Shown here piece after piece: positions 44,196 through 64,000 of a stretch of DNA of 64,000 bases. The DNA lies in NCBI GenBank assembly GCA_964621395.1, contig CAZULS010000001.1, positions 245,106 to 309,105 of the forward strand. The letters run 5' to 3'. The stretch is from an uncultured Candidatus Saccharibacteria bacterium. Lineage in GTDB: Bacteria > Patescibacteriota > Minisyncoccia > Phycocordibacterales > JACNGX01. The notes below the pieces were generated by a model. It ran no database searches. It saw only the letters and a list, made by a program, of their open reading frames with translations, and had not been told where the DNA came from. Positions within the stretch are counted from its first letter, which is position 1, and each line of letters begins with the position of its first letter. The translations under genes and the position numbers were made by a program.

Positions 44196-44365
44196 GCCTT
44201 GTTCTTTTGTTTCTGGCTCCATATTAACAACATGGAGCCAGTTTTTTATGAAATGGTTTTGGTAAACACGGCAAGCAGACTTTCATTTTCCTTGCATTCC
44301 AAGAATATCTATAGTATGCTATGTCGCACGTGCTTTTGCTTTGAATATTGAAGGCACTCACTACT

Positions 44366-44524: not shown

Positions 44525-44525
44525 T

Positions 44526-44724
44526 CAGAACTCATCTCACATTACATGGCTTGTTCTCGCGCCAAGGATTCGAGCGAGTCGCAGTCTCGGAGACCGAAGC
44601 GTACTATTGTACGATGAGGTTGAGAGGCAAGACGCAGCCGAATACTTGGCGCGAGAACTGCCAAGCGATTATGCGTAGCGTGAGAATATCACTACCTTAG
44701 CGGTGTAATGTGAGATGAGTTCTG
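44526..44724. repeat. MITE-like element, family 2
   Basis: Starts 2 nt after the rpmG stop and ends 16 nt before tRNA-Asp: cagaactcatctcacattacatggcttgttctcgcgcc...gcgcgagaactgccaagcg...taatgtgagatgagttctgg. Confidence 0.7.
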
Positions 44725-44739
44725 GTGTCGTTTAGAGCT

Positions 44740-45520: not shown

Positions 45521-45748
45521 CAGAAAATCAAAAGACAAAAAACAATAGTCAAATACCAAATAAAAAGGAAATATCAAACACAAAAACACAAAAGCGGCGC
45601 GTAGCGTCGCTTTTTGATACACGGCATTATTTGTCATTCCCAGCTTGACTGGGAATCTTCGCTGTTTTGTTTTTAGAGGTTATTCGAGAAGATCCCGCAT
45701 CAAGTGCGGGATGACAGGATATGTGTGTTCCGTGCTATACTGTCCACT

Positions 45749-46645
45749 ATGACAGACACGCGGACAAAAGAGGAGAAGCAAATGCGACTCAAGGAGATTG
45801 AGGCGGCAATGAATAGCGCCGATTTTTGGAGCGATAAAGACAAAGCACAATCGCTTATTGCCGAAATGCAGGAGCTGAAAGACGATATTGAAGGTGTCTC
45901 AAAATATGATCGCATGGGCGCTATCATTTCATTTGTTGCCGGTGCGGGGGGAGACGACGCGGAAGATTTTGTGGCGATGCTGTATCGGATGTATGCGAAG
46001 TATGCGGAGAATCGTGGGTGGAGCATGGAGGTGCTCCATAAAAATGAAAATGATCATGGCGGTATTCGCAATCTCACCGCAGAGATTACAACGAAGAATG
46101 CATACGGCACACTCAAGCATGAATCAGGGATCCATCGACTCGTGCGCCTCTCTCCTTTTAATGCCAAGAGTCAGCGACACACGTCTTTTGCACTTGTGGA
46201 AGTGGTGCCGAAAATCGACAAGCGCGGCGGTATCGACATTAGAGACGAAGATGTGAAGGTGGAATTTGCACGATCATCAGGTCCGGGCGGGCAGAATGTG
46301 AATAAGCGGGAGACGGCAGTGCGTATTGTGCATCTGCCGACCAATATCGCCGTCCACGCCGAATCAGAGCGCACACAGGAGCGCAATCGCGATAAGGCAA
46401 TGGAGATTCTCGAAGGACGCTTGATTCGCAAGCAGGAAGACGACCGTGCTCGCGAGCTTGCCGGATTGTCTGTGTCAAAGACAGTGCAGATTGAATGGGG
46501 GAATCAGATTCGCTCGTATGTCCTTCACCCATATAAAATGGTGAAAGACCACCGAACGGATGTGGAAGTGCGCGATGCCGAAAAGGTCTTGGAGGATGGT
46601 GTTATTGAGCCATTTTTGGACGCTGAAAAAGAGCTTTCACAGTAA
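45749..46645 (+). CDS. prfB: Peptide chain release factor 2 (N-terminally short, no frameshift site evident)
   Basis: ATG 8 nt after TATACT (45735-45740). SPF tripeptide motif (RLSPFNAKSQRHTSFA) and GGQ (SGPGGQNVNK). The alignment begins at about residue 25-30 of E. coli RF2. The track's GTG start at 45704 lies inside a hairpin repeat. Confidence 0.8.
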   Translation: MTDTRTKEEKQMRLKEIEAAMNSADFWSDKDKAQSLIAEMQELKDDIEGVSKYDRMGAIISFVAGAGGDDAEDFVAMLYRMYAKYAENRGWSMEVLHKNENDHGGIRNLTAEITTKNAYGTLKHESGIHRLVRLSPFNAKSQRHTSFALVEVVPKIDKRGGIDIRDEDVKVEFARSSGPGGQNVNKRETAVRIVHLPTNIAVHAESERTQERNRDKAMEILEGRLIRKQEDDRARELAGLSVSKTVQIEWGNQIRSYVLHPYKMVKDHRTDVEVRDAEKVLEDGVIEPFLDAEKELSQ

Positions 46646-46910
46646 CGCCTTTCGTGTTCAGTATTGTCAAAAAAGCGAAGATCCCGCATCAAGTGCGGGA
46701 TGACAGGTACTTTTATTGTTTATTTTCCATTGTTTGTTCGTAGGCATTTTTTGCTTTTTTCGTTTTGGTGTATAATACTCTTACGAACGTACAAATTGTT
46801 ACATATCTACAAATGGTACGAATAATACAAATCCGTTTCTAACGCCAGGTGGTCATTTGTATTATTCGTACCATTTGTAAATTAGTATGTATTCGTAGAT
46901 TTGGAGTCTT

Positions 46911-48772: not shown

Positions 48773-50524
48773 ATGGCACCATCTCGCAACACACCAAAAT
48801 CAACCGCGCGCGCTTCAAAGAAGCGCGCGCGAAAATATATCTTCGTCGTCGGCGGTGTTATCTCCGGCGTGGGGAAGGGAGTAACGGCATCATCGATTGC
48901 CAAAATCATTCAAAGCCGTGGCTTCAATGTCACGGCAATCAAAATCGATCCGTATGTGAATGTCGATGCCGGCACCATGAACCCCACAGAACATGGCGAA
49001 GTGTTTGTGTTGAATGATGGCTACGAAACGGATCAGGACCTCGGAAACTACGAGCGATTTTTGAATATTACCTTGCCGTCGAAGAATTATATGACCACCG
49101 GTCGGGTGTACCAAGCGGTGATTGAGCGTGAACGCAACCTCGGCTATAAAGGAAAATGTGTGCAAGTGGTGCCGCATATTCCGCTTGAAGTGGTATCGCG
49201 TATTAAAAAGGCTGCAAAAGATGCTGATGCTGATGTGACCGTGGTGGAAGTCGGTGGCACCGTGGGTGAGTATGAAAATATTTTGTATCTCGAAGCAGCC
49301 CGCATGCTCAAGAGTGAAGACCCAAAGAGCGTCATGACGGTCATGGTCTCATATTTGCCAACGCCACCAAAGGTGGGGGAAATGAAAACAAAGCCAACAC
49401 AGCATGCGAGCCGCTTGCTCAATTCTGCCGGTTTGAATGCGGACATTATCATTGCTCGATCAGAAATGCCGATTGATAAAAAACGCAAGGAAAAAATTGC
49501 TACGTTCTGCAGCATTCTCCCTGAGCGAGTGATCTCCGCACCCGATGCCGATAGTATTTATGATATTCCGGTCAACTTTGAAAAAGACAATCTCGGCGAT
49601 ATCATGCTCGATTTGCTCGCACTTCCGAAGCGTGATCGCGATATGGCACACTGGCGTGCGTATGCATCGCTCGTAAAGCGTGTGTCGGAACCGGTGCATG
49701 TGGCGATTGTAGGAAAATATTTCAGCACGGGCGACTTTGTACTCTCCGATGCATATATTTCGGTCATTGAATCAATCAAGCACGCCGCCTACGGACTCAA
49801 GAAAAAGCCGAAAATCTCATGGCTCTCGGCAGAACAGTTTGAAGACACAAAAAATCTCAGAGAGCTCAAAAAGTATGATGCGATTTTGGTGCCGGGTGGT
49901 TTTGGTGAGCGCGGTATTGAGGGGAAACTCAATGTCATTTGCTACGCGCGCGAGCAAAAGATTCCGTATTTCGGACTCTGCTACGGTATGCAGCTTTTGG
50001 TAACTGAATTTGCTCGACACAAAGCAGGTCTCAAGGGCGCCAACACCGCTGAAATCGATGAAAACGCTCCGCATGTGGTAATTGATATTATGGACGACCA
50101 AAAGAAGAAACTCGAAGAAGGCGACTACGGCGGCAGTATGCGTTTGGGTGCGTACCCGGCGGTGCTTCGTAAAGGCACCATTGCGCGCAAGGCATATAAA
50201 TCAGAGGACATCAGCGAACGACACCGTCATCGCTATGAAGTGAATCCCAATTATATTGCCAAGCTCGAGGATGCCGGTTTGATATTCTCCGGCACCTCGC
50301 CCGACGGCAGACTCATGGAAATTGCCGAGCTTCCCGCAAGCAAACATCCGTTCTTCCTCGGAAGCCAATTCCACCCCGAATTCAAATCACGTCCGCTCCA
50401 CCCCCATCCGCTTTTCACCGCATTTATGAAAGCAGCTTCAAATCGTGCACTCTCGCGCAAGTCCAAAAGCACCAAACCGGCCAAAGTTTCAAATAAGAAG
50501 AGGAAGTCCAAGAGTAGAAAATAA
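48773..50524 (+). CDS. pyrG: CTP synthase
   Basis: Internal ATG (MAPSRN...KYIFVVGGVISGVGKG). Synthetase domain plus glutamine amidotransferase domain (GLCYGMQ, HPEF). Basic 22-aa N-terminal extension and Lys-rich C-terminal tail (SRKSKSTKPAKVSNKKRKSKSRK). Confidence 0.9.
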   Translation: MAPSRNTPKSTARASKKRARKYIFVVGGVISGVGKGVTASSIAKIIQSRGFNVTAIKIDPYVNVDAGTMNPTEHGEVFVLNDGYETDQDLGNYERFLNITLPSKNYMTTGRVYQAVIERERNLGYKGKCVQVVPHIPLEVVSRIKKAAKDADADVTVVEVGGTVGEYENILYLEAARMLKSEDPKSVMTVMVSYLPTPPKVGEMKTKPTQHASRLLNSAGLNADIIIARSEMPIDKKRKEKIATFCSILPERVISAPDADSIYDIPVNFEKDNLGDIMLDLLALPKRDRDMAHWRAYASLVKRVSEPVHVAIVGKYFSTGDFVLSDAYISVIESIKHAAYGLKKKPKISWLSAEQFEDTKNLRELKKYDAILVPGGFGERGIEGKLNVICYAREQKIPYFGLCYGMQLLVTEFARHKAGLKGANTAEIDENAPHVVIDIMDDQKKKLEEGDYGGSMRLGAYPAVLRKGTIARKAYKSEDISERHRHRYEVNPNYIAKLEDAGLIFSGTSPDGRLMEIAELPASKHPFFLGSQFHPEFKSRPLHPHPLFTAFMKAASNRALSRKSKSTKPAKVSNKKRKSKSRK

Positions 50525-50757: not shown

Positions 50758-50831
50758 TGCCGGGTCATCTAGTGGTAGGATGCGAGTTTCTGGCACTCGT
50801 CACCGGGGTTCGAATCCCTGCCCGGCAGCCA
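50758..50831 (+). tRNA. tRNA-Gln (CTG)
   Basis: U1:A72 acceptor (tgccggg/cccggca) typical of bacterial tRNA-Gln, anticodon stem cgagt/actcg with loop uuCUGgc, T arm ccggg-gttcgaatcc-ctg, discriminator G, encoded CCA. Track ORF 50616..50837 overlapping it is spurious. Confidence 0.8.
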
Positions 50832-50881
50832 ATTTGAGATAGGTTCAGAATCCGAGTACCATATCTCAGATAAGAAACAAT

Positions 50882-51586
50882 ATGACTAAAGAACAACACT
50901 TTCTTCCTGAACACGCACAAGGGCAATTTCATTGCCCACATTGCGGTGTTTATGCAAAACAGCGATGGTCGCACTTAAGTGCAGTGGGTGACGTGCATAC
51001 CACCAAATGGGGTGGCGGCTCTGTTAAGAATGCCTCAAGTATTCTCGGAACTACTCTTACTAACGGCAATCTCACAGATGATTGGTCCCTCTCTGTTTGC
51101 GAGCACTGTAATGGATTATCTATATGGCATAAACGTCGAATGATTTATCCAGAAAAGATTATTGTTGAGGAGCCCAATGCAGATTTGTCGGGAGAGATTC
51201 AAAAGGACTACCTGGAAGCCGCGAATGTACTTGCCAATTCACCACGCTCAGCAGCAGCGATTCTACGGCTTGCTCTCCAAAAACTTTGTAAACAGCTGGG
51301 CGAGAAAGGAGAAAACATAAACGATGATATTGGTGCACTTGTAAAGAAAGGGCTTAATCCTGCGATCCAAAAATCTCTCGATGCGCTTCGTATCACTGGG
51401 AATAACGCTGTTCATCCAGGGGAACTCGACATTACAGAAGAACCAGGGCGGGTCATTAAGCTTTTTGGTCTTCTGAATTTTATTGCAGAAAAAATGATTA
51501 CCGAACCGAAGGAAATTGACTCATTCTACGAAGGATTACCAGATGGTGCGAAACAAGCGGTAGAAAAGCGTGATCAAGACAAATAA
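50882..51586 (+). CDS. Zinc-ribbon + putative HEPN/DUF4145-like protein
   Basis: 234 aa; N-terminal Cys4 (CPHCG...CEHCNG); C-terminal alpha-helical region with AILRLALQKL and LRITGNNAVHPGE (R...GN..H). First gene 3' of tRNA-Gln. Confidence 0.35.
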   Translation: MTKEQHFLPEHAQGQFHCPHCGVYAKQRWSHLSAVGDVHTTKWGGGSVKNASSILGTTLTNGNLTDDWSLSVCEHCNGLSIWHKRRMIYPEKIIVEEPNADLSGEIQKDYLEAANVLANSPRSAAAILRLALQKLCKQLGEKGENINDDIGALVKKGLNPAIQKSLDALRITGNNAVHPGELDITEEPGRVIKLFGLLNFIAEKMITEPKEIDSFYEGLPDGAKQAVEKRDQDK

Positions 51587-51695
51587 CGGATCCCAACTTT
51601 TTACTGGTTTAAAGTAAAAGAAGTAGAGAAAGAAATAATCAAAATGAAACAAAGTCTCATTTTGAGCGAAAAATATATGGCACTAGATTTTTTGT

Positions 51696-52076
51696 ATGAA
51701 AATAAGAAAAGAAAACATATTAATTCGAGCGATAGGGTTTCTACTTTCTCTTGTTTGGTTTGGTATAAGTTTTATCAAAATGTTATTTTCAATGCTTAAG
51801 GAAAAAATACAAAAAAGAAAGAAAATGACACTAGAAGAGACTGATGAGTTTTTAAATAAAGAAATAAAACGTGTCATTAAACATCTCGTCGAATCTTTTG
51901 AAAGAGGCGAAGTGGATGAAGATCAGCTTCTTGGTGAGCGCAGGATCGTCATTGCTATTGTCTTCGACAGGGAAAGATTGCTCCCTGACGGTTTTACCAA
52001 AGAAGAAGCAATGGAAAGATTGACACCTTCGTGGCGTGAGGAAGTGAGGTATCACTACAGGCTTCGCCATAAATAA
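51696..52076 (+). CDS. Small membrane protein (126 aa)
   Basis: N-terminal TM (AIGFLLSLVWFGISFIKMLF), charged C-terminus. Its stop lies 2 nt before the Nudix start. Confidence 0.3.
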   Translation: MKIRKENILIRAIGFLLSLVWFGISFIKMLFSMLKEKIQKRKKMTLEETDEFLNKEIKRVIKHLVESFERGEVDEDQLLGERRIVIAIVFDRERLLPDGFTKEEAMERLTPSWREEVRYHYRLRHK

Positions 52077-52078
52077 CT

Positions 52079-52663
52079 ATGGACATCCAAAAACCAAAAT
52101 CAGCACAGCCAATTCCTGAACACGCCAAGTGTGTGTTTAAGGGCGTGATGTTTGACGTGTATCAATGGGAGCAGGAATTATATAACGGAACAACGACGAC
52201 GTTTGAGAAATTGAAGCGTGCTGATACGGTGATGGTGTATCCAGTACTTCCCGATGGCAAAATTCTTTTAGCCGAACAAGAACAGCCCGGTAAAGAACCC
52301 TTTATAAGTGCTGCGGGTGGTCGTGTTGACGAGGGGGAAGAAGTGTTTGACGCGGCGAAGCGTGAACTTTTGGAGGAGACGGGATATGAGGCAGATGAAT
52401 GGACTCTTTGGAAAGCAGTACAGCCGGGAAGTAAAATTGATTGGGCGGTCTATTCTTTCATTGCTAAGGGACTACGGAAGGTTGCTGATTTGAATCTCGA
52501 TGGTGGCGAGAAGATTACTCCCAAGCCGGTGACATTCGAAGAGTTTCTTGAGATGGGCACGAATGACCGGTTCGGTGAAAAGGAAATTGTTCCCGAACTT
52601 CTCCTGGCGAAAATTGATTCGGAAAAAGAGAGGGAAATAAGAGCATTATTTTCCGCAGATTAA
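52079..52663 (+). CDS. Nudix hydrolase
   Basis: Nudix box GGRVDEGEEVFDAAKRELLEETG (G-x5-E-x7-REUxEExGU). Confidence 0.7.
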   Translation: MDIQKPKSAQPIPEHAKCVFKGVMFDVYQWEQELYNGTTTTFEKLKRADTVMVYPVLPDGKILLAEQEQPGKEPFISAAGGRVDEGEEVFDAAKRELLEETGYEADEWTLWKAVQPGSKIDWAVYSFIAKGLRKVADLNLDGGEKITPKPVTFEEFLEMGTNDRFGEKEIVPELLLAKIDSEKEREIRALFSAD

Positions 52664-52698
52664 GGTCTCACCTTAATCTAATCCTTAATCAAGATTTG

Positions 52699-52740
52699 AA
52701 GCGTATCAAACGCTTGCTTTTATCGTATCACAATGATACG
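52699..52740 (+). promoter_or_regulatory. Two palindromic operator-like sites sharing CGTATCA half-sites
   Basis: aagcgtatcaaacgctt (52699-52717) and cgtatcacaatgatacg (52724-52740), about 100 nt 5' of the AbiEi-like gene. Confidence 0.45.
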
Positions 52741-52838
52741 AAAAATGACCTGAGATGATACGATATTTCTTGCTTTTGAGGGGAAACGGGTTGTTGTTTG
52801 ACACTGTATTTCACATATGATACACTATTGTCATACTT

Positions 52839-53456
52839 ATGAAAAGCAAAGAAAATTTGTTATATCAGTTGAATCTCTTGCCTCATTTTACCAAAGACAC
52901 GGTATATCGTCTTGGAGAGCAGTTGGGGCTTCGGAAAAGCACGGTTGACACATATATCAGCCGGTTTTTGAAGCGCAAGGAAATAATACGATTGAAAAAA
53001 GGATTGTACATATCGTCGGTGTTTTATTCGACACATGTAAGCGATATGTCGTATCTGTTTTGTCTTGCCAATATTCTCCGAACGCCTTCATATGTAAGTT
53101 CATGGACAGCGCTTCAGTATTATAATCTTACAACCGAAGTGATACACCCGATTATATCAACAACGACAAAAGTGACACGGACGCAGGAAACGAAGGTGGG
53201 GACGTTTTCGTATCAGTCAATTCGGAACGATCTTTTTTCAGATTATGTGCGTGTGAACGGGGCATTTGATTTTTTCATTGCGACACCGTCGAAGGCATTG
53301 TTCGATCTCTTGTACTTCAGGACACGGCAATTTCGCGGCGTGAACCGCGGGGATATTGATCGCATAGTTGAAGAACTGCGGATTGATATTGACGAAATAA
53401 ACGATACCGAGCGAAGCAAGTTTTACACGTATATCAAAGAATACATTCATGAGTAA
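52839..53456 (+). CDS. AbiEi-like antitoxin (type IV TA / abortive infection, N-terminal wHTH)
   Basis: 205 aa. 8-nt overlap with the downstream NTase-fold gene. Size and architecture match the AbiEi_4-type partner of AbiEii; family assignment is from motif memory only. Confidence 0.45.
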   Translation: MKSKENLLYQLNLLPHFTKDTVYRLGEQLGLRKSTVDTYISRFLKRKEIIRLKKGLYISSVFYSTHVSDMSYLFCLANILRTPSYVSSWTALQYYNLTTEVIHPIISTTTKVTRTQETKVGTFSYQSIRNDLFSDYVRVNGAFDFFIATPSKALFDLLYFRTRQFRGVNRGDIDRIVEELRIDIDEINDTERSKFYTYIKEYIHE

Positions 53457-54732
53457 TCATATTATTGCCATGCTGAAAAAACGAATCGAGGAGCTTGATA
53501 TGTATGACACACTGGATGCCGAGACTCGTCGCAATGTGCTCAAAGAAGAGCTGCAGTTTTACGTGCTTGATTTCATCTATCATCATCCCGAATATCATAG
53601 ATGGATTATGTACGGCGGTTCCGCATTGCGTATTCTGCACGGATTGAATCGCATGTCGGTGGATTTGGATTTTGAAGTGTCGCGCGCGGTAACGAATGAT
53701 TTTTTGCAGACACTTAAGAATGAGATTGAAACTCACTTCTCACAGACGTACGGGACCGATACTGATTTTCTCACAGCCAAGGTCGTTGGTGGCAGAGGGC
53801 TGAAACTCAAGTTTCATATTGGTGAAATGCTCGGTATTGACCACCCTTCGAAACAGGTTCATGTAAAGATTGACCTCAATCGCTTTGTCGCGCCAAAAAC
53901 GGTGACCGAACGAATACCGGTGTCTCGCAATCAGCTTTCTTTTGTGATTCTGACGTACAATATGTCGGCGCTTATGGCAAGTAAAATCGCCGCCATTGTA
54001 TTGCGCGGTGCACGCATAGTCGGCAAAAACGTGTATGAAGAGAAAGGGAGAGATATATACGACCTTCTGTGGTATATGGAGAAAAAAATTGTACCCGATT
54101 TTGATTATTTGGTTGCCAAAGAGATTGATATTCGCAACCTTCGTGCGCTTTTTGACACGCTGACGCTTCGTATGAACACGGTAAGCACGGAGAATCTCAA
54201 GCAGGATCTTACTCCTTTGTTTGAGCATAAAACATTTATCGATAATTGGATGACGCATTGGCTGGAACAGTATTTTCATCTTCTTGAAGAATATCATATT
54301 CGGACGGTAACCGATGTGAAGCGTATAGGAGTATACCGGGATTTCTCGTCCGATAATTTCTACTTTACGTATACCTATGATACAGAGGAAAAAGATCCGA
54401 TACGAGTGATATACGCGATGAGCGATTATTGGATTGACTTTGCGCCTCATGCACTGCCGAATGATGTTGATGAAAAGATAGCATCACTGATTGGGTTTGG
54501 TGGCAACGGCATGACAAGCCATCCTTCTTCTGAGGAAATGATAAAGAAGTATACAACGTTGTTTTTTAAGAAGACGGAAGAGTATTTTAAGAAAACACAT
54601 AACGTAGTGGTGGGAGATATGCTGGAGACGAAACTGATACGCATGACGGCGGACAATCTCAATCGCAATACAGAGATTGTTCTTACGATGCCGACGCTTT
54701 TGTCATGCGAACTCGATGATTTGTTGAAGTAG
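53449..54732 (+). CDS. AbiEii/AbiGii-family nucleotidyltransferase toxin-like protein (DUF1814-like)
   Basis: 427 aa; N-terminal NTase signature YGGSALRILHGLNRMSVDLDFEV (GG[ST]-x9-R-x-S-x-D-x-D); long C-terminal extension. Confidence 0.55.
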   Translation: MSNHIIAMLKKRIEELDMYDTLDAETRRNVLKEELQFYVLDFIYHHPEYHRWIMYGGSALRILHGLNRMSVDLDFEVSRAVTNDFLQTLKNEIETHFSQTYGTDTDFLTAKVVGGRGLKLKFHIGEMLGIDHPSKQVHVKIDLNRFVAPKTVTERIPVSRNQLSFVILTYNMSALMASKIAAIVLRGARIVGKNVYEEKGRDIYDLLWYMEKKIVPDFDYLVAKEIDIRNLRALFDTLTLRMNTVSTENLKQDLTPLFEHKTFIDNWMTHWLEQYFHLLEEYHIRTVTDVKRIGVYRDFSSDNFYFTYTYDTEEKDPIRVIYAMSDYWIDFAPHALPNDVDEKIASLIGFGGNGMTSHPSSEEMIKKYTTLFFKKTEEYFKKTHNVVVGDMLETKLIRMTADNLNRNTEIVLTMPTLLSCELDDLLK

Positions 54733-54741
54733 TTATCATCT

Positions 54742-56910
54742 ATGAGTACGCTCTCAAAACAGGAACGGATTGATCTTTTTAGAGATTTGTTTCGCGGTCG
54801 GGAGGATGTGTTTGCGCGGCGATGGGAGAAATACGGCGGAGGAGTAAGCGGGTACGCGCCGGTGTACATGGACTGGCGGAAGAAGGAGGCATATGTACCA
54901 CTTTCGGATGCGCACATCGAGCGACATTTGACCGGCAACGCTACGCTCGGCGTGTACGCGCTTATTGAAGACAACACCTCGCGTTTTCTTGTCGTTGATT
55001 TCGACGGTGACGGATGGCGGAGCGACGCGCGGAAGTTTTGTGATGTGTGTGCCCCGCGAGGAGTGCCGGTATATGTGGAGCAGTCGCGGTCGGGGAACGG
55101 CGCGCATGTATGGTGCTTTTTCTCCGAGCCGGTTCAGGCGTATATGAGCCGCGCCGTCTTTTTCCGGCTGCTGCGTGAGGCGCGGCACATTGGTGAGTAT
55201 GAAAGGGATGATAGTTTTGACCGGCTGTTCCCCAATCAGGATTATCTTTCGGGAAAAGGGCTGGGGAATTTGATTGCGCTTCCCTTGCAGGGGAAGTCGC
55301 GCAAGGAAGGAAATACGGTGTTTGTGAATCCCGACGATGATTTTGCCGTGTATCCCGATCAGTGGGAGTTTTTGACGAATGTGAAGCGTGTGTCGCGCGG
55401 CGAGATGGAATTGCTGTACGCGGATGGTGTCGCGGATAGCGAATACGGTTCTGGAAAGGGCGATGCAAGGAGGAAGGGGAGGCGCGCGCAGCTTCGCGGC
55501 GCGCGCAATCCGTCCGCCATTCACATCACGCTCGCGCACGACCTCACGATTCCGAAAAAAGATGTTCCTCCAACAATTGCCGCGTATCTGCGCGACGAGC
55601 TGAATTTTTTCAACGCACAGTACGCGATCAAACAGCGCATGGGATTCAGTCCGCACGGCGTGGAAAAATATATCCGCGCCGTCTACGACGATGACACACA
55701 TGTGCATATTCCGCGCGGGTGGTTATCAAACGTTAAAGAGAAATGCGCCGAAGAAGGGTTGGCGGTCGATATCTCGGATATGCGATCTGACGGCGCGCGT
55801 GTCGCGTACACGCCGAGCATTACGCTTCGTCCGTACCAGAAAAAAGCGGTTGACACACTCACTGCAGAAGGAGGTGGCGTGCTTGTTGCGCCGCCCGGCG
55901 CGGGAAAAACGATTATCGGCATCATGGCTGCGGCGAAACTGAAACGCTCCGTGCTTATTCTTACGCATCGCGCGCAAATCTTTAATCAGTGGATCGACGC
56001 GGCGGAATCTTTCCTGGGTATGCCAAAGAAAGACATCGGTCGGTATTCGGGAGCGGAAAAACGCGAAGGAAAAGGATATGTCACCGTTGCCATGGTGCAG
56101 ACAATCGCGCGGATGTCCGATGAAGATACGCGGGTGCTTCGCGACAGATTCGGCATGGTGATATTGGACGAATGCCATCATGTACCGGCGCGTATGTTTC
56201 GCGATTGTGTCGCGCGTTTCAATCCGCGGTATCTCTACGGGCTCACGGCAACGCCAAAGCGCATGGGCAACGACGAAAAACTCATCACCGCGTATCTCGG
56301 GGATACGGCGCATGTGGTTGAGCCGGCGGACATGTGCGGAAATGCGGAAGGAAAAAGCGGGAACGCACAAACACTCGATATCGCAGTACGCGAGACGAAA
56401 CTATCGCTGCCGTTTTCGCCAAAAGCGACCGACATGCCGACGCTTGGGCGTATTGTCTCTCACGACGCCGAGCGGAACGCGCTAATTTCTGCAGACGTGA
56501 GAAAAGAAGTCGAGAAAGGGAATGCGTGTCTTGTTCTCACCGAGCGGAAAGAGCATGCCGATGTGCTGGCATGGTACTTGAGACGCCACGCGGACACAGC
56601 GCTCTTTACCGGAGACCTTTCGGGACGAAAACGGCGGGATACCGAAGCGCGGATAAAGAAGGGGGATTTCGACGTGATTGTGGCAACTGGACACATGCTC
56701 GGCGAAGGAGCCGATATCCCCGCTCTTTCACGACTCTTTCTCGCGTTCCCGTTTTCATTCGAGGGTAAGCTGATTCAATACCTCGGCCGTGTCGGACGAA
56801 ACGATTTGCCCTCGCGCGTCTACGACTACCGCGACAGCAACATTCCGCTTTTGGAAAAGAAATTCACCGCGCGTCGCAGACGGTACCGAAAAATGACAGA
56901 TGCTATATAA
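54742..56910 (+). CDS. Archaeo-eukaryotic primase (AEP/PrimPol)-like domain fused to SF2 DEXH-box helicase
   Basis: 722 aa. N-terminal AEP motifs: FLVVDFDGDG (motif I, DxD), SGNGAHVWCFF (motif II, sGxGxH), DRLFPNQD (motif III candidate). C-terminal helicase: LRPYQ (Q motif), APPGAGKT (I), ILDECHH (II), GLTATP (III), QYLGRVGR (VI). GC-rich (about 58-60%). Confidence 0.6.
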   Translation: MSTLSKQERIDLFRDLFRGREDVFARRWEKYGGGVSGYAPVYMDWRKKEAYVPLSDAHIERHLTGNATLGVYALIEDNTSRFLVVDFDGDGWRSDARKFCDVCAPRGVPVYVEQSRSGNGAHVWCFFSEPVQAYMSRAVFFRLLREARHIGEYERDDSFDRLFPNQDYLSGKGLGNLIALPLQGKSRKEGNTVFVNPDDDFAVYPDQWEFLTNVKRVSRGEMELLYADGVADSEYGSGKGDARRKGRRAQLRGARNPSAIHITLAHDLTIPKKDVPPTIAAYLRDELNFFNAQYAIKQRMGFSPHGVEKYIRAVYDDDTHVHIPRGWLSNVKEKCAEEGLAVDISDMRSDGARVAYTPSITLRPYQKKAVDTLTAEGGGVLVAPPGAGKTIIGIMAAAKLKRSVLILTHRAQIFNQWIDAAESFLGMPKKDIGRYSGAEKREGKGYVTVAMVQTIARMSDEDTRVLRDRFGMVILDECHHVPARMFRDCVARFNPRYLYGLTATPKRMGNDEKLITAYLGDTAHVVEPADMCGNAEGKSGNAQTLDIAVRETKLSLPFSPKATDMPTLGRIVSHDAERNALISADVRKEVEKGNACLVLTERKEHADVLAWYLRRHADTALFTGDLSGRKRRDTEARIKKGDFDVIVATGHMLGEGADIPALSRLFLAFPFSFEGKLIQYLGRVGRNDLPSRVYDYRDSNIPLLEKKFTARRRRYRKMTDAI

Positions 56911-56919
56911 TGGACATGT

Positions 56920-57459
56920 ATGATTGCGTTTGAAACACATGCGGGGAAGGAGATTAATCTTGATGCCGTGGAAGCGGTGATGCTCGGGAAACATGCCGAG
57001 CCGCGCTTTTTGGACGTGGTGACGGGGCGGGTTGAGAGTGAGCCGAGTGTGACGCGCATGGAGATTCCGGTGATATCCAAGGAGCGATTTGAAAAAGAAA
57101 TGCGGTCGTTTATTGATATGATGGCGGTATGGGAGAATGATGAATCCGATGCGTGTATAATTGAGAAACTAACAGCGCTTCTTTCAGGAAAAGAGGTGTA
57201 TGATAAGGCGATGCAGATACTTCAAACGGACGAAGCATGGATGATTGGCTGGCGCGAATGGATTTCCACAAGCGTGTGGGAAGAAATGCGCGCGTGGCTG
57301 CTTTCCGCCGATAACGGTATCGTTGAGGTTGCAACATTCAATTGCTCATGCGCGCTCTGTCACGACATGGCGCAAGGCATGAAAGGCAATGAACGTATTC
57401 GTGTGGATTGGAATTTGGATAATATGAATGAGGATGGAAATGATAAGCTAGAAAAATGA
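56920..57459 (+). CDS. Hypothetical protein (179 aa) coupled to the AEP-helicase gene
   Basis: Starts 10 nt after the helicase stop; same GC-rich composition. Acidic, with a Cys cluster CSCALCH near the C-terminus. No known family recognised. Confidence 0.35.
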   Translation: MIAFETHAGKEINLDAVEAVMLGKHAEPRFLDVVTGRVESEPSVTRMEIPVISKERFEKEMRSFIDMMAVWENDESDACIIEKLTALLSGKEVYDKAMQILQTDEAWMIGWREWISTSVWEEMRAWLLSADNGIVEVATFNCSCALCHDMAQGMKGNERIRVDWNLDNMNEDGNDKLEK

Positions 57460-57506: not shown

Positions 57507-58721
57507 ATGATTAGCTTCTTAGCCGAGCGGCGGGCACTTATGTCGCTGTATGGTGGACGAGTATTCCTTTCCATGGCGGAGACCATGGTGGGGATTTTTC
57601 TTGCCATTTTCATTTTTGAGCTCTTCGGACGGCAGCTCTGGCCTGTTTTCGCGTATTATCTTTTTCGTCATCTTGCCTATGGTCTTCTTGTGCCACTCGG
57701 CGGCATTATCCTTGATCGTATCGGCTCACGCGTGCCGCTTGTCTTGGGAGTATGTTCATCGGCTGCGTTTATCACCTCGCTCTATGGTGTTACAACAAGT
57801 GAAGGGACAACACAGCTTCTCTTCCTCGGAGCAGCACTTATCTTTACCGTCACCTTTCGTGTGTTTTTCTGGACACCATTTCATGTGGATGTGGCGACAC
57901 ATACAAATCGTGCCGTGCGCGGAAAAGAAACCGGTGTGCTTCTTGCGGCCCTTACTGTCGTGTCGGCAACAGCGCCGGCAATCGGTGGCTTCCTCATTTC
58001 CTCGTATGGGTATGCCATGTTGTTTATCGTTGCGGTATTTGTGAGCCTTGCAGCAATTATTCCTTTTATCTCCGTGCCCAAGCGCGACGAAACATTCTCT
58101 TGGGGATATGGAGAGACGTTTCGTCGTGTCTTGGCTCCCGAGAGCAGACGCCTTGTTGTCTCAAGCATGCTCCTTGGCGCTGAAAACATTATTGGTGTTC
58201 TCATCTGGCCGCTCTTTATCTTCTTGCTGCTCGACGGACAGTATTTGGATGTTGGTATTATTTCATCGCTCATCGTGATTGGTACGGCGATGTTTCAGCT
58301 TGTTGTCGGCGACAGATTAGACAAGCATGCCAAGGCGGATGTGATGCGCGGGTGGACACCGTTTACAGCAGTTGCCTGGGTGCTTAAAATTTTTGTGGCA
58401 ACGGCATTTCAGATTTTTATTGTTGGCGCATATCACAGTATTGTGCGCTCGTTTCGAAGCGTATCATATGAGGCGTTTTTCTATGAGCTTGCCGCCGACG
58501 GTGGACAGTATGTCGATGAGTATACGGTTGTGCGTGAAATGGCCATTCAGTTTTCAAAAGTAATCACCGTTGCAATCATTGCTCCCATCGCCTTTTTCTT
58601 TGGCTTACAGTGGACTTTTCTCATCGGATTCATCACATCAATCCTTCTGAACATGTTTTTGAAGCATGATACTGAGGAGGAGATGCAGGAGAAGGCGCGG
58701 GAGGTAAATATTAGAAATTAG
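57507..58721 (+). CDS. Multi-pass membrane transporter (MFS-like)
   Basis: 404 aa, about 12 predicted TM segments. A TATACT box lies 8 nt 5' of the ATG. Confidence 0.45.
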   Translation: MISFLAERRALMSLYGGRVFLSMAETMVGIFLAIFIFELFGRQLWPVFAYYLFRHLAYGLLVPLGGIILDRIGSRVPLVLGVCSSAAFITSLYGVTTSEGTTQLLFLGAALIFTVTFRVFFWTPFHVDVATHTNRAVRGKETGVLLAALTVVSATAPAIGGFLISSYGYAMLFIVAVFVSLAAIIPFISVPKRDETFSWGYGETFRRVLAPESRRLVVSSMLLGAENIIGVLIWPLFIFLLLDGQYLDVGIISSLIVIGTAMFQLVVGDRLDKHAKADVMRGWTPFTAVAWVLKIFVATAFQIFIVGAYHSIVRSFRSVSYEAFFYELAADGGQYVDEYTVVREMAIQFSKVITVAIIAPIAFFFGLQWTFLIGFITSILLNMFLKHDTEEEMQEKAREVNIRN

Positions 58722-58794: not shown

Positions 58795-59217
58795 GTGAAT
58801 CTCTATATGAATATGAATTCCTCAAACATAATTGTTATCCTAGCGTTACTTCTTGGAGTGTCCGTCTATTTTAATGTGCAAGGATCCAAGAAAAAGGATT
58901 TAATTTTTGAGAACAACTTGAGATGCGCACAATATATTGAGCAGGAGAATGAAGAAGCGGACAGAATCGCAGACTTGCCTATTAATCAGACAAGAATAGT
59001 GTCTGTTCCCAAAGTATTTTATAGTCCCGTATTGAATACATGTGTTAGTGCTCTTAGGATTGATGATTTTAGAGAAGGTTTCAGTAGTTATTATGTTATT
59101 AAGGATCTGTTGATTAACGAGTCCATTTTGGAGGTAAATGGACTCAGAAATGAAATATCCGGTCAAATTGCATCGGACCAGTATCATGCAAAACTGGAGG
59201 AGTTAAGCGGCCGATAG
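58795..59217 (+). CDS. Hypothetical signal-anchored protein (140 aa)
   Basis: N-terminal hydrophobic segment IIVILALLLGVSVYF; very AT-rich. Confidence 0.3.
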   Translation: MNLYMNMNSSNIIVILALLLGVSVYFNVQGSKKKDLIFENNLRCAQYIEQENEEADRIADLPINQTRIVSVPKVFYSPVLNTCVSALRIDDFREGFSSYYVIKDLLINESILEVNGLRNEISGQIASDQYHAKLEELSGR

Positions 59218-59261
59218 CCAGAGCATAAAGACAAGGAAATCGGGAACTAGAAATTAAAAAT

Positions 59262-59822
59262 ATGGTACTGAAGAAACTATCAAGAATCGTTGACGAAATA
59301 CTTCCGCGCTCTGAATTTTTGGAGATGCATGGTTATCATATCGAGTCTTTTTATCTCTTGGCCGCAATATTAGAAATAGAAATAGAACGCCTGCTCTCTC
59401 TATATGAACAAAATGTTTCTTTTTTTGTTGAGAAAGGAGAAAGCGAAAGTGATTTTAGTTTTGATGTAGAGTCTTTTAAGAAAAGGTATCTAAGGAATAA
59501 GATGACGATTGGACAATCTATTGAATACATGTCATTTTTCTGTAAAGACGACAAGATTCTAAAAGAATTACAATATTTTAACGACTTACGACGGAAGTGT
59601 GTTCACGGACTTTTTGACGAGAAAAATAATTTATCAGAATTGGACATTCTTGTTTCTGGAGACCAGGAAAGATTTTTTAAATTATTGGAAGATATAGATA
59701 AGTTACAAGGTGAGTTAATTGATTCGCTGATGGAGAAGTGTGAATGTATGAGAGGAAGGGAAGAAAAAGAGTGTCTCAGTAAACTGTATGACTTTGATTT
59801 TCTTCGAGACAACAAAGAGTAA
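59262..59822 (+). CDS. Hypothetical acidic protein with R-x4-H (possible HEPN-like) motif
   Basis: 186 aa; NDLRRKCVHGLF; AT-rich. Confidence 0.25.
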   Translation: MVLKKLSRIVDEILPRSEFLEMHGYHIESFYLLAAILEIEIERLLSLYEQNVSFFVEKGESESDFSFDVESFKKRYLRNKMTIGQSIEYMSFFCKDDKILKELQYFNDLRRKCVHGLFDEKNNLSELDILVSGDQERFFKLLEDIDKLQGELIDSLMEKCECMRGREEKECLSKLYDFDFLRDNKE

Positions 59823-61087: not shown

Positions 61088-61220
61088 GTCATCCCGCACT
61101 TGATGCGGGATCTCCAATATATTTTCACTAAAAACTGTTTGAAAACCAAAGTTGAGCTTTGATATGAATACCAAAGCTCAACTTTGGTTTTCTGGATCCC
61201 GCATCAAGTGCGGGATGACA
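61088..61220. repeat. Hairpin-unit pair element (family 1 short form) with an internal 16-bp hairpin
   Basis: gtcatcccgcacttgatgcgggatc ... accaaagttgagctttg-N14-caaagctcaactttggt ... ggatcccgcatcaagtgcgggatgaca. Confidence 0.65.
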
Positions 61221-61267
61221 AGTGGAAAATAATTGACAGTAAACTGAGAAAAATAAAAACCCCGTCA

Positions 61268-63279: not shown

Positions 63280-64000
63280 GACGATTAACGATAAACTTTT
63301 AGACGATAAAGAAGCAGCGCGGGACCTTTGGCCCCGCGCTGCTTTCGATTCCGGTTCTATACTGTCATCCTGCACTTGATTCTATATTGCCGCGCGGATG
63401 CAATGCGGTATCTTTGCAGATTCTGAATCAAGTTCAGAATGACAAAAATAATGTATATGTCACAAAAAAGCCGCGCTATACGCGCGGCTCTTGTCATCTT
63501 GTGTCCCATCGTGTTGCGGCAAAAAACGCAATCTGGGCGAGTATTTCCGCATTAGGCACTAAGGCTTCCGCAGACTCTTTGTCCGGAAAGGTGTCTTCCG
63601 ACTTAGAATCTTTTCTCTGATGCTCCTGCTTTTTCGTTTCCTCATTTTCATCCCCCGACATTATTACCACCTCCCTTTTTGAAGCACGAGTAGGTTATGG
63701 ATTCTCTAATCTCCTCCACAACATCCCCCGAGCCGTTCGCTCGTCTCCTAGCTTTGTCTTTTTTCGATTTCTTATCTGTCAGGGAGCATTTACATTCTCC
63801 CTTCTGTCTCTTGTCGTTTCCCGTACTGTGTGTACAGACGTGATAACCTGTGTCTGCCATACGTTTTTATTTTTTGAGGATTTACAAATATTACAAAAAG
63901 AACATAAAATATAACCTCCTTAGTAAATCATATATTGCTTTGTAAATCAATTGTTCTTTTCTTCTATACGTCAATTTGATATACTGGACATGTTATGGGA

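What the first reader, a model, noticed from the sequence alone, without database searches (positions are those of the whole stretch)
50832..57459. Compositionally mosaic accessory island directly 3' of tRNA-Gln with defence-type gene content and no integrase
Every gene in the 6.6 kb after the tRNA-Gln 3' end is of the kind found in anti-phage or mobile islands, not in core metabolism. In order they are: a Zn-ribbon plus HEPN/DUF4145-like protein, a small membrane protein and a Nudix hydrolase separated by only 2 nt, an AbiEi/AbiEii-like pair, and an AEP-SF2 helicase fusion with a coupled partner. Composition is mosaic: the Abi-like genes are about 40% GC, the AEP-helicase module about 58-60%, the genome about 45%, all by eye. 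tRNA 3' ends are classic integration sites, yet I could not find a tyrosine/serine recombinase or a direct repeat of the tRNA-Gln 3' end downstream. Possible explanations are an old, decayed integration, an integrase outside the window, or a recombinase-independent hotspot.
Basis: partly seen in the sequence, partly recalled or inferred. Interest (0 to 1): 0.8.

Follow-up and report, generated by a model that had tools for sequence, protein, structure and literature searches.

The report
Defence-gene hotspot beside tRNA-Gln in CPR bacterium
A 6.1 kb stretch right after a tRNA-Gln gene in a small-genome (Patescibacteria/CPR) bacterium is a swap-in/swap-out slot carrying two known anti-phage systems and a homolog of the E. 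coli IS-excision enhancer; this is an ordinary kind of defence hotspot, though in an unusual host.

Summary
tRNA-Gln(CTG) lies at 50758-50831. Seven co-oriented genes follow it, and I found no recombinase and no repeat of the tRNA end.

The genes can now be named:
- RAZR/PD-T7-4, 45% identical to the solved E. coli protein.
- An ORFan.
- A NudE/NudF-like Nudix hydrolase.
- AbiEi and AbiEii.
- A full-length homolog of the E. coli IS-excision enhancer IEE (AEP plus SF2 helicase; 33% identity, E 9e-116).

The 179-aa "coupled partner" is not a partner. It is a divergent relative of the UPF0158 family and belongs to the conserved backbone.

A close relative (PyrG 92% identical) keeps pyrG, tRNA-Gln, this 179-aa gene and the MFS gene. 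Between the tRNA 3' end and the 179-aa start codon it carries entirely different genes. The island proper is therefore 50832-56917.

In four of 27 more distant relatives, the same tRNA-Gln site holds small defence cassettes next to a large serine recombinase. Such recombinases leave no long repeats.

Only the IEE-like gene is a clear compositional outlier.

Verdict: a tRNA-flanked defence hotspot, filled in several steps. It is a new member of a known kind. One new lead: IEE-family genes often sit directly downstream of AbiEii or Fic genes.

The parts
48827..50524 (+). pyrG (CTP synthase): conserved left-flank core gene
   Evidence: NCBIfam PRK05380 2.5e-207. The order prfB-ftsE-ftsX-pyrG-tRNA-Gln recurs in dozens of Patescibacteria loci. 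80% nt identity to L086.
50758..50831 (+). tRNA-Gln(CTG): left boundary of the variable slot
   Evidence: ARAGORN and Rfam 52.6 bits. Similarity to L086 and L082 ends at the tRNA 3' end.
50882..51586 (+). RAZR / PD-T7-4 homolog (Zn-ribbon plus DUF4145/HEPN RNase)
   Evidence: PADLOC PD-T7-4 5.1e-82. PDB 9y9c (the only PDB match; 24 chains of a 219-aa DUF4145 protein, taken to be the E. coli RAZR of PMC13017515) E 4e-50, 45% identity over 196 aligned residues. CPHC at 18 and CEHC at 73. R170-x7-H178 aligns to the catalytic R146/H154.
51696..52076 (+). 126-aa ORFan with a possible N-terminal membrane anchor
   Evidence: No hit in Pfam, PADLOC, NCBIfam or PHROGs. The only hit among 5.8 billion proteins is itself, annotated there as 83 aa. 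GC 36%, z -2.7.
52079..52663 (+). Nudix hydrolase, NudE/NudF (ADP-ribose pyrophosphatase) type
   Evidence: Pfam NUDIX 1.3e-13. NCBIfam NudE 5e-16 over the full length. PDB NudF 3e-14. Canonical Nudix box at residues 81-102.
52798..52826 (+). Best sigma-70-like promoter match of the region, just upstream of abiEi
   Evidence: TTGACA-17-TACACT with an extended TG. This is a consensus match only.
52839..53456 (+). AbiEi antitoxin/regulator
   Evidence: PADLOC AbiEi 2e-34. The Pfam AbiEi_4 match is below cutoff. Overlaps abiEii by 8 nt.
53449..54732 (+). AbiEii (DUF1814 nucleotidyltransferase toxin) with a ~150-aa C-terminal extension
   Evidence: Pfam AbiEii 2.1e-21, 77 bits against a cutoff of 22.5. 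PADLOC AbiEii 1.1e-31, match covering residues 15-277.
54742..56910 (+). IEE-family protein: N-terminal AEP (PrimPol-type) fused to an XPB-like SF2 helicase
   Evidence: BLASTP to E. coli O157 IEE (ECs_1305): 33% identity over 754 aa, E 9e-116, end to end. Pfam AEP-TOTE 2e-75, ResIII and Helicase_C. Catalytic D86/D88/H122/D160 and K389/DECH/R683 are invariant in 26 homologs. GC 55%, tetranucleotide z 5.0.
56920..57459 (+). 179-aa UPF0158-like protein: right-flank backbone gene, not part of the island
57507..58721 (+). MFS transporter: right-flank backbone gene
   Evidence: Pfam MFS_1 6.5e-17. 76% aa and 72% nt identity to L086.

Best explanation
The interval between the 3' end of tRNA-Gln (50831) and the start codon of a conserved UPF0158-like gene (56920) is a chromosomal hotspot for accessory, mostly defence-type genes in a Patescibacteria (CPR) genome. 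It is bounded by conserved core genes: pyrG and tRNA-Gln on the left, the 179-aa gene and MFS on the right.

**Origin (inferred).** The present 6.1 kb content was assembled in more than one acquisition.
- Low-GC3 block: RAZR plus the ORFan.
- Host-like block: Nudix plus AbiEi/AbiEii.
- Clearly foreign, high-GC gene: the IEE-like gene.
- No resident recombinase remains. Cargo is probably exchanged in two ways: by homologous recombination in the conserved flanks after DNA uptake, and by small serine-recombinase elements that target this same tRNA-Gln site in related species.

**Function (inferred from homology).**
- RAZR is an abortive-infection HEPN RNase, switched on when it assembles around phage ring proteins such as the portal.
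- AbiEi/AbiEii is a toxin-antitoxin abortive-infection pair whose nucleotidyltransferase toxin blocks translation.
- The IEE-like enzyme is a DNA-dependent ATPase and error-prone primase-polymerase. It acts on transposition or replication intermediates of mobile DNA and joins ends by microhomology.
- The Nudix and the ORFan have no demonstrated role in defence.
For: **Shown**
- Host. PyrG is 60-68% identical to 80 Patescibacteria MAGs, and gene order is conserved from the tRNA-Met/Asp/Thr cluster through prfB-ftsE-ftsX-pyrG to tRNA-Gln.
- Replacement in a close relative. L086 keeps both flanks. Between them it has a 252-aa gene, an IS1595 transposase, DUF2202, PGA_cap, PRiA4_ORF3 and others. 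The breakpoints fall exactly at the tRNA 3' end and 2 nt before the 179-aa ATG.
- L088 shows a third arrangement: Fic directly upstream of the 179-aa homolog.
- Island genes are absent from all 80 related pyrG loci.
- The region after tRNA-Gln is non-syntenic in all 27 relatives with enough sequence.
- Four of those 27 carry a large serine recombinase 1.1-3.2 kb after the tRNA. The cargo between tRNA and recombinase is Hypoth_Ymh+DUF4145, Hypoth_Ymh, GmrSD_N or a methyltransferase; an AlbA_2 gene lies just beyond the recombinase in L030.
- These recombinases are 51-75% identical to one another, and their similarity is incongruent with PyrG.
- L082 has an IEE homolog directly after the same tRNA-Gln.
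- Composition. The IEE-like gene has GC3 0.61 against a backbone mean of 0.47 (0.53-0.55 in the adjacent core genes), and tetranucleotide z 5.0. Its homologs in L082, L083 and L085 match their hosts' GC.
- Gene identities.

**From the literature**
- RAZR mechanism: PMC13017515.
- AbiE: bioRxiv 10.64898/2026.01.19.700257.
- IEE: PMC9943667.
- Core defence hotspots flanked by tRNA/tmRNA genes, of which 29-47% have no detectable mobility gene: PMC10250203.
Against: - Only one genus-level relative (L086) spans both flanks. How often the slot turns over is therefore unknown.
- RAZR, Nudix and AbiE are not compositional outliers. "Several acquisitions" rests mainly on the IEE-like gene and the ORFan.
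- No activity of any gene was tested.
- The Nudix may be a housekeeping gene that happens to lie here.
- No att site or recombination scar could be identified, in the window or in the recombinase-bearing relatives. The mode of exchange is therefore inferred.
Confidence: 0.6

Rival explanations
1. Decayed single integrative element. The whole block 50832-56917 arrived at once on an element integrated next to tRNA-Gln by a large serine recombinase, as seen in relatives. The recombinase gene was later deleted.
For: - Four of 27 relatives have a serine recombinase with defence cargo at the same site.
- Serine integrases leave no long direct repeats (established knowledge), so the negative repeat search does not argue against this.
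- All seven genes are co-oriented and tightly packed.
Against: - No recombinase remnant was found by tblastn.
- The elements in relatives carry only about two cargo genes (~3 kb), not six.
- The block falls into three composition classes, with a sharp GC step exactly at the abiEii/IEE junction.
- AbiE-IEE and IEE alone occur as separate units elsewhere.
Confidence: 0.2
2. IS-delivered cassettes immobilised by the resident IEE. The genes came in on IS-flanked (compound-transposon-like) units. The IEE-like enzyme then promoted excision of the flanking IS copies, with small microhomology deletions. This left tightly abutting genes, no transposase and almost no scar.
For: - The island encodes a full-length IEE homolog with its catalytic residues intact.
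- IEE removes IS3/IS1/IS30-family elements and causes adjacent deletions (PMC9943667).
- IEE together with IS3 can fuse genes into operons (PMC8860574, listed).
- Junctions between compositionally different genes are only 9 nt long.
- The relative L086 still has an IS1595 transposase in its version of the slot.
Against: - No IS or transposase fragment was found anywhere in the 64 kb window with the queries tried.
- IEE activity is known only for copy-out-paste-in IS families in E. coli.
- CPR genomes are compact in any case, so short spacers need no special explanation.
Confidence: 0.12
3. Ancestral locus with differential loss. The IEE-like gene (and perhaps others) is an old vertical resident of this neighbourhood in the lineage, and relatives such as L086 lost it.
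For: - L082 has an IEE homolog directly after the same pyrG-tRNA-Gln.
- L083 has one among prfB, HI0933, gatA and ligA, which are also window backbone genes.
- IEE identity (50-54%) is similar to that of the core genes (53-63%) in the same genome pairs.
Against: - The window copy is compositionally foreign, whereas the L082, L083 and L085 copies match their hosts.
- It is absent near pyrG in all 80 representative species and in the closest relative.
- Homologs are common on plasmids next to transposases and recombinases.
Confidence: 0.06
4. Assembly or binning chimera that joins foreign DNA to a CPR backbone.
For: The source is a metagenome-derived genome, and the IEE-like gene has deviant composition.
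Against: - An independent Logan assembly contig (13.4 kb, seen in 2 samples) contains ftsX through HI0933 with the identical sequence.
- Both flanks are contiguous with CPR core genes.
- The best IEE homologs are themselves from CPR genomes.
Confidence: 0.02

Closest known systems
Core defence hotspots / defence islands at tRNA-flanked sites (P. aeruginosa cDHS1/cDHS2, PMC10250203; E. coli hotspots, PMC10121019)
   Same: - Conserved core flanks that include a tRNA gene.
- Different cargo in related genomes.
- Several defence systems side by side.
- No mobility gene in the occupied site; 29-47% of cDHS sites likewise have none.
   Different: - The host is a ~1 Mb-class Patescibacteria genome.
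- The slot is small (6 kb).
- Only one close relative is available, so occupancy statistics cannot be given.
- Relatives use a specific family of large serine recombinases at the site.
RAZR (PD-T7-4), ring-activated zinc-finger RNase (PMC13017515; PDB 9y9c)
   Same: - Full-length homology (E 4e-50, 45% identity).
- Cys4 zinc ribbon.
- DUF4145/HEPN domain with R-x7-H aligned to the catalytic R146/H154.
- A single-gene system.
   Different: - A 22-residue insertion inside the zinc ribbon.
- The host phylum differs.
- The phage trigger and the activity are untested.
AbiE (AbiEi/AbiEii) toxin-antitoxin abortive infection system
   Same: Overlapping two-gene operon: an AbiEi-type regulator/antitoxin followed by a DUF1814 nucleotidyltransferase.
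   Different: - AbiEii is 427 aa, with an unassigned ~150-aa C-terminal extension.
- AbiEi matches Pfam only below the cutoff.
- It is immediately followed (9 nt) by an IEE-family gene, an arrangement that recurs elsewhere.
IS-excision enhancer IEE of E. coli O157:H7 (ECs_1305; PMC9943667)
   Same: - The same two-domain architecture over the full length (AEP plus SF2 helicase).
- 33% identity, E 9e-116.
- All catalytic residues conserved.
- Horizontally spread and often found next to mobile-element genes.
   Different: - 722 aa against 786 aa; it lacks the N-terminal ~40 residues of IEE.
- No IS element lies nearby.
- It is embedded among abortive-infection genes in a CPR chromosome.
- Its activity on IS elements is untested.
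TOTE conflict systems (TPR, OB, TBP, Effector; Aravind, Iyer and Burroughs 2022, as cited in PMC12458937)
   Same: The AEP domain matches the Pfam family named after these systems (AEP-TOTE, 2e-75).
   Different: - No TPR-OB protein and no TBP protein lies next to it.
- This holds in the window and in 79 homologous loci.
- The neighbouring 179-aa protein is a helical UPF0158-like fold, not a TBP.

Membership tests
RAZR / PD-T7-4 | N-terminal Cys4 zinc-ribbon domain | tested here: met
   CPHC at 18-21 and CEHC at 73-76 align to the two CxxC pairs of PDB 9y9c, with a 22-residue insertion between them.
RAZR / PD-T7-4 | C-terminal DUF4145 (divergent HEPN) domain with catalytic Arg and His (R146/H154 in E. 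coli) | tested here: met
   Pfam DUF4145 7.4e-15. RITGNNAVH (R170...H178) aligns to RIVGNQAVH. Residue roles come from PMC13017515.
RAZR / PD-T7-4 | Phage protection through activation by ring-shaped phage proteins | not testable with these tools
   Needs phage assays and biochemistry.
AbiE toxin-antitoxin | DUF1814/AbiEii nucleotidyltransferase toxin | tested here: met
   Pfam AbiEii, 77.4 bits against a cutoff of 22.5. PADLOC 1.1e-31.
AbiE toxin-antitoxin | Upstream AbiEi antitoxin/regulator in the same operon | tested here: met
   PADLOC AbiEi 2e-34 over residues 13-202. 8-nt overlap with abiEii. Pfam AbiEi_4 scores only 19.3 bits, below the cutoff of 25.
AbiE toxin-antitoxin | Toxicity neutralised by the antitoxin; abortive infection | not testable with these tools
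   Experimental.
IEE (IS-excision enhancer) | N-terminal AEP domain with the metal-binding DxD and D, and the nucleotide-binding His | tested here: met
   D86/D88, H122 and D160 align to IEE D142/D144, H178 and D216. They are invariant in 26 homologs.
IEE (IS-excision enhancer) | C-terminal SF2 helicase-like ATPase (Walker A Lys, DExH, Arg finger) in the same polypeptide | tested here: met
   K389, DECH 476-479 and R683 align to IEE K451 and R735. ResIII 1.5e-27 and Helicase_C 1.8e-10.
IEE (IS-excision enhancer) | End-to-end sequence homology to the characterised E. coli protein | tested here: met
   33% identity over 754 columns, E 9e-116, residues 1-718 against 42-773.
IEE (IS-excision enhancer) | Transposase-dependent enhancement of IS excision; microhomology end joining | not testable with these tools
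   Experimental. No IS or transposase was detected in the 64 kb window with IS629, IS600, IS66 and IS1595 queries. The rest of the genome is not available.
TOTE conflict system | AEP-TOTE-type effector domain | tested here: met
   Pfam PF22548, 2.1e-75.
TOTE conflict system | Adjacent TPR-OB (cold-shock domain) protein | tested here: not met
   No TPR or CSD hit in any island protein. Neither family appears among those matched by two or more of the 194 genes flanking 78 other homologous loci, so each occurs in at most one.
TOTE conflict system | Adjacent TBP-domain protein | tested here: not met
   The 179-aa neighbour is UPF0158-like. It has a mostly helical fold (pLDDT 92) with no TBP match.
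Integrase-mediated tRNA-site genomic island | Location at the 3' end of a tRNA gene and absence from close relatives | tested here: met
Integrase-mediated tRNA-site genomic island | Resident tyrosine or serine recombinase gene | tested here: not met
   Every ORF of the interval on either strand is accounted for. tblastn with four serine recombinases, two tyrosine integrases and transposases gave nothing.
Integrase-mediated tRNA-site genomic island | Direct repeat of the tRNA 3' end at the distal boundary | tested here: not met
   This feature is expected only for tyrosine integrases, not for serine integrases.
Core defence hotspot | Conserved flanking core genes with differing cargo between related genomes | tested here: met
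   Window compared with L086, L088 and L082. 27 more distant loci.
Core defence hotspot | Cargo enriched in defence systems across genomes | tested here: inconclusive
   - Window: RAZR, AbiE and the IEE-like gene.
- Relatives: Hypoth_Ymh, DUF4145, GmrSD_N, AlbA_2 and N6_Mtase in some.
- Many other loci have metabolic or unknown genes after the tRNA.
- No background rate was computed.

The most novel reading that the evidence does not exclude
AbiEi-AbiEii (or, alternatively, a Fic protein) together with an IEE-family primase-helicase form a functional unit. In this unit a nucleotidyl-transferring toxin module is coupled to an enzyme that senses or processes mobile-DNA intermediates.

Evidence for a recurrent arrangement:
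- In 79 IEE-family loci from unrelated metagenomes, AbiEii lies immediately upstream on the same strand in 7, and never at +1 or +2.
- AbiEi lies at -2 in at least 4.
- Fic lies immediately upstream in 6, often 3-15 nt away.
- Two of the AbiE-linked copies are 47% identical to E. coli IEE itself.
- The IEE overview preprint that I searched does not mention AbiE or Fic at all.

A second, related reading concerns mobility. The tRNA-Gln site of Paceibacteria-type CPR genomes may be served by a dedicated family of roughly 3 kb serine-recombinase 'mini-elements' that shuttle one or two defence genes.
Probability: 0.25. Interest if true: 0.6.

Novelty: new member of a known kind. Interest (0 to 1): 0.4.

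Why it matters
CPR/Patescibacteria have tiny genomes and, to my knowledge, are usually described as poor in phage defence. This locus shows a compact, exchangeable defence slot at a conserved tRNA-Gln site in such a genome.

- It carries a close homolog of the recently solved RAZR RNase, an AbiE pair, and an IEE homolog.
- It gives a concrete, testable picture of how streamlined genomes may keep a small rotating arsenal without resident mobility genes.
- It links an enzyme known only from E. coli IS biology (IEE) to abortive-infection modules across phyla. If that link is functional, the view of what IEE-family proteins do would widen.

Taken by itself, however, a tRNA-adjacent defence hotspot made of known systems is not surprising.

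Tried and rejected
1. **The 179-aa gene as partner of the AEP-helicase, or as the TBP component of TOTE: rejected.**
   - Its homologs (68% and 67% identical) lie next to PRiA4_ORF3/163-aa genes or Fic, never next to an AEP-helicase.
   - It shares backbone-level nucleotide identity with L086.
   - It is UPF0158-like with a helical fold.
   - A first single-sequence AF2 run was useless (pLDDT 36).
2. **A replicative or housekeeping primase: rejected.** The gene is sporadic, absent from the closest relative and from 80 related loci, plasmid-borne elsewhere, and homologous to IEE.
3. **A phage-borne origin of the AEP-helicase.** No IMG/VR contig was found with the close-relative search.
4. **A conserved membrane-protein plus Nudix pair.** The 126-aa ORF has no homolog at all, so no conserved pair can be claimed.
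5. **att sites.**
   - No repeat of the tRNA 3' half in the window.
   - No convincing direct or inverted repeats bound the recombinase cassettes of L030, L034, L076 or L080.
6. **Dispersed hairpin repeats as island boundaries.** The copies (45688, 46677, 61088, 61192, 63416) do not flank the island.
7. **Non-coding RNAs in the island.** No Rfam family other than the tRNA.
8. **SpLE1 genes upstream of E. coli iee as AbiE/Fic relatives.** No match to my local profiles.
9. **Aravind et al. 2022.** The review that defines TOTE is not held in the library. TOTE's definition is therefore taken second-hand from PMC12458937.

Full report
**1. What is in the sequence**

ARAGORN and Rfam place tRNA-Gln(CTG) at 50758-50831. 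It ends a conserved run: tRNA-Met, Met, Asp, Thr, Thr, then prfB (45704-46645), ftsE, ftsX and pyrG (48827-50524).

Seven co-oriented ORFs follow, separated by very short spacers. All were checked against Pfam, PADLOC, NCBIfam and PHROGs.

No other sizeable ORF in the interval on either strand has a family match. No Rfam family other than the tRNA is found.

**2. The host**

PyrG is 60-68% identical to 80 Patescibacteria (CPR) MAGs, mostly Parcubacteria/Paceibacteria-type.

The order prfB-ftsE-ftsX-pyrG is present in 44-55 of these loci. A tRNA-Gln on the same strand follows pyrG within 6 kb in 36 of them. The left flank is therefore an old, conserved backbone of this bacterial class.

**3. 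Gene identities**

- **50882-51586 is a RAZR/PD-T7-4 homolog.**
  - PADLOC 5e-82.
  - PDB 9y9c is the only PDB match (24 chains of a 219-aa DUF4145 protein), which I take to be the E. coli RAZR-Gp77 ring of PMC13017515. E 4e-50, 45% identity over 196 aligned residues.
  - It has two CxxC pairs.
  - R170-x7-H178 aligns to the catalytic R146/H154.
  - RAZR is an abortive-infection HEPN RNase that is activated by assembling around phage portal-like rings (PMC13017515).
- **51696-52076 is an ORFan.** Its only database hit is itself, annotated there as 83 aa without the hydrophobic N-terminus.
- **52079-52663 is a Nudix hydrolase of the NudE/NudF ADP-ribose-pyrophosphatase type.** Its Nudix box is intact. 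Nothing ties it to defence.
- **52839-53456 and 53449-54732 are AbiEi and AbiEii.** They overlap by 8 nt. AbiEii carries an unexplained ~150-aa C-terminal extension.
- **54742-56910 is an AEP fused to an XPB-like SF2 helicase.**
  - Pfam calls the AEP "AEP-TOTE".
  - The closest solved AEP is a Pfam/PDB entry labelled only "TPR_REGION domain-containing protein" (7nqd), which from memory is the CRISPR-associated PrimPol.
  - The helicase resembles XPB/Rad25.
  - The decisive result: it is a full-length homolog of the E. coli O157 IS-excision enhancer IEE (ECs_1305). Identity is 33% over 754 columns, E 9e-116, with every catalytic residue aligned. Those residues are invariant in 26 homologs.
  - IEE is an AEP-SF2 fusion. 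It promotes transposase-dependent excision of IS3/IS1/IS30-family elements. It has Mn-dependent error-prone polymerase, DNA-dependent ATPase and microhomology end-joining activities (PMC9943667).

**4. Island boundaries, and why the "partner" is not one**

The 179-aa protein has only two close homologs among 5.8 billion proteins.

One of them lies on L086, a contig from a close relative. There, PyrG is 92% identical, pyrG 80% at nucleotide level, and MFS 76% at amino-acid level.

L086 reads: ftsX, pyrG, a 216-aa gene, tRNA-Gln, then a 252-aa gene, an IS1595 transposase, 168-aa and 89-aa genes, DUF2202, PGA_cap, PRiA4_ORF3 and a 163-aa gene. Then come the 177-aa homolog, a 420-aa gene, a DEAD helicase and MFS.

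- Nucleotide similarity to the window stops at the tRNA 3' end.
- It resumes 2 nt before the ATG of the 179-aa gene, at 77.7%, the same level as the backbone.
- In L088 the homolog follows a Fic gene with overlapping stop and start codons.

The 179-aa gene is therefore backbone, and the island proper is 50832-56917.

**5. Composition**

| Gene | GC | GC3 |
|---|---|---|
| RAZR | 0.44 | 0.36 |
| ORFan | 0.36 | 0.34 |
| Nudix | 0.46 | 0.44 |
| AbiEi | 0.41 | 0.47 |
| AbiEii | 0.43 | 0.49 |
| IEE-like | 0.55 | 0.61 |
| 179-aa gene | 0.48 | 0.53 |
| Adjacent core genes (prfB, ftsE, ftsX, pyrG) | 0.47-0.50 | 0.53-0.54 |

Compared with the 43 other genes of the window, only the IEE-like gene and the ORFan are outliers. 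The 2 kb window 55001-57000 has the largest tetranucleotide distance in the whole 64 kb (z 5.0).

IEE homologs in L082, L083 and L085 have the GC content of their hosts. The deviation is therefore a property of this copy, which points to recent import.

The mosaic claim is correct for this gene but weak for the Abi genes.

**6. Is there a recombinase, and does the site matter?**

Nothing was found in the window.

The region after tRNA-Gln is non-syntenic in all 27 related loci that have at least 3 kb of sequence there. Four of them (L030, L034, L076, L080) carry a large serine recombinase (Resolvase, Recombinase and Zn_ribbon_recom domains). It lies 1.1-3.2 kb after the tRNA, on the opposite strand.

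| Locus | Genes between tRNA-Gln and the recombinase |
|---|---|
| L030 | Hypoth_Ymh + DUF4145 (AlbA_2 lies just beyond the recombinase) |
| L076 | Hypoth_Ymh + a 191-aa gene |
| L080 | GmrSD_N + a 232-aa gene |
| L034 | a methyltransferase + a 90-aa gene |

- The four recombinases are 51-75% identical to one another.
- Their similarity is incongruent with PyrG: L034 and L080 share 75% in the recombinase but 58% in PyrG.

This looks like a family of small elements that target this tRNA-Gln site.

Large serine integrases leave no long direct repeats (established knowledge). The missing repeat therefore says little. I could not define att sites.

In L082, which carries the closest IEE homolog from JGI (54-55% identical), the IEE gene lies directly after the same pyrG-tRNA-Gln.

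**7. The IEE family in context**

- Thousands of full-length homologs exist, many of them in CPR genomes.
- 216 PLSDB plasmids carry one.
- In five of five plasmids sampled, it lies beside tyrosine or serine recombinases or IS transposases.
- In 79 loci analysed (L082, L083, L085, the metagenome loci and the window), the family is mostly solitary and never accompanied by TPR, cold-shock or TBP genes. It is therefore not a canonical TOTE locus as defined in PMC12458937.

There is a positional pattern:

| Neighbour | Position relative to the IEE-family gene | Loci |
|---|---|---|
| AbiEii | -1, always the same strand; never +1 or +2 | 7 of 71 with upstream sequence (window included) |
| AbiEi | -2 | 4 |
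| Fic | -1 | 6 |
| AlbA_2 | either side | 7 |
| CcbP-like small protein | +1 | 6 |

Two of the AbiE-linked copies (L128, L166) are 47% identical to E. coli IEE. The IEE overview preprint contains no mention of AbiE or Fic.

Whether this reflects a functional unit or only shared island residence is open. In the window the two parts differ in composition, which argues that they were joined here rather than imported together.

**8. Interpretation**

The best-supported reading is a tRNA-flanked hotspot of the kind described for P. aeruginosa cDHS1/2, where 29-47% of occupied sites lack any mobility gene (PMC10250203). E. coli has comparable hotspots (PMC10121019). Here the hotspot lies in a CPR genome and was filled in more than one step.

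Shown:
- The conserved flanks and the exact breakpoints.
- Replacement of the content in relatives.
- Recombinase cassettes at the same site in other species.
- The gene identities.
- The foreign composition of the IEE-like gene.

Inferred:
- The mode of exchange (flank homologous recombination and/or serine-recombinase elements).
- The defence roles.
- Any cooperation between AbiE and the IEE-like enzyme.

One appealing rival is only weakly supported: the resident IEE homolog may itself have erased flanking IS copies, leaving a scar-less, immobile island. No IS remnant was found in the window.

**9. Verdict**

An accessory defence-type island without an integrase is correct. The right boundary, the "partner", the "every gene is defence" claim and the strength of the mosaic needed correction.
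- It is a new member of a known kind and of moderate interest.
- The AbiE/Fic-IEE adjacency and the tRNA-Gln serine-recombinase cassettes are the leads worth following.

Noticed in passing
window 58795-59822: Two ORFs lie between the MFS gene and the HI0933 flavoprotein: 140 aa with an N-terminal hydrophobic segment, and 186 aa. Their GC is very low (0.37 and 0.34; z -2.4 and -3.2). They have no hit in Pfam, PADLOC, NCBIfam or PHROGs and are absent from all related loci. This may be a second small accessory insert just outside the finding.
   Followed up: partly
window 43345-44739: A 1.4 kb stretch with ~59% GC carries ORFs on both strands, with no Pfam or Rfam match. It lies between tRNA-Met and tRNA-Asp, which are only about 25-510 nt apart in several relatives. 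It also contains nested inverted repeats (44526-44724). This looks like another tRNA-adjacent insert or an unknown RNA.
   Followed up: partly
window 45688-45718, 46677-46707, 61088-61113 (inverted), 61192-61222, 63416-63446: A dispersed hairpin repeat, GATCCCGCATCAAGTGCGGGATGAC, occurs in intergenic regions. Related ~70-nt elements are shared with the relative L086. It resembles a REP-like or terminator-like element. The copies do not bound the island.
   Followed up: partly
window 25446-26288: A 280-aa ORF has 31% GC (z -3.7), the strongest low-GC outlier of the window.
   Followed up: no
window 54280-54732 (AbiEii residues ~278-427): AbiEii has a ~150-aa C-terminal extension beyond the DUF1814 model, with no family match. 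The AbiEii proteins next to IEE homologs elsewhere are 240-315 aa.
   Followed up: no
L030, L034, L076, L080 (1.1-3.2 kb after tRNA-Gln): A family of large serine recombinases (51-75% identical to one another) sits at the same tRNA-Gln site in four divergent Patescibacteria. Each has one or two defence-type genes between the tRNA and the recombinase. The recombinase similarity is incongruent with PyrG similarity. No att repeats were found.
   Followed up: partly
L004-L080, pyrG to tRNA-Gln spacer: The distance between pyrG and tRNA-Gln varies from 88 to 4489 nt among relatives. L086 has a 216-aa gene there and L082 a 78-aa GIY-YIG gene. Insertions therefore also occur on the 5' side of the tRNA.
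   Followed up: no
L172-L176 (PLSDB plasmids): In five of five sampled plasmids the IEE-family homolog lies directly beside tyrosine or serine recombinases or IS5/IS630/IS3 transposases. One case (Gemmobacter) has three tandem tyrosine recombinases.
   Followed up: partly
L086 9310-10340, L088 313-1913, window 54742-57459: The conserved UPF0158-like gene always starts within 9 nt of (or overlapping) the stop of a different, unrelated upstream gene: the IEE-like gene, a 163-aa gene, or Fic. Similarity begins 2 nt before its ATG. Either this is a fixed recombination point, or it simply reflects the compactness of the genome.
   Followed up: partly
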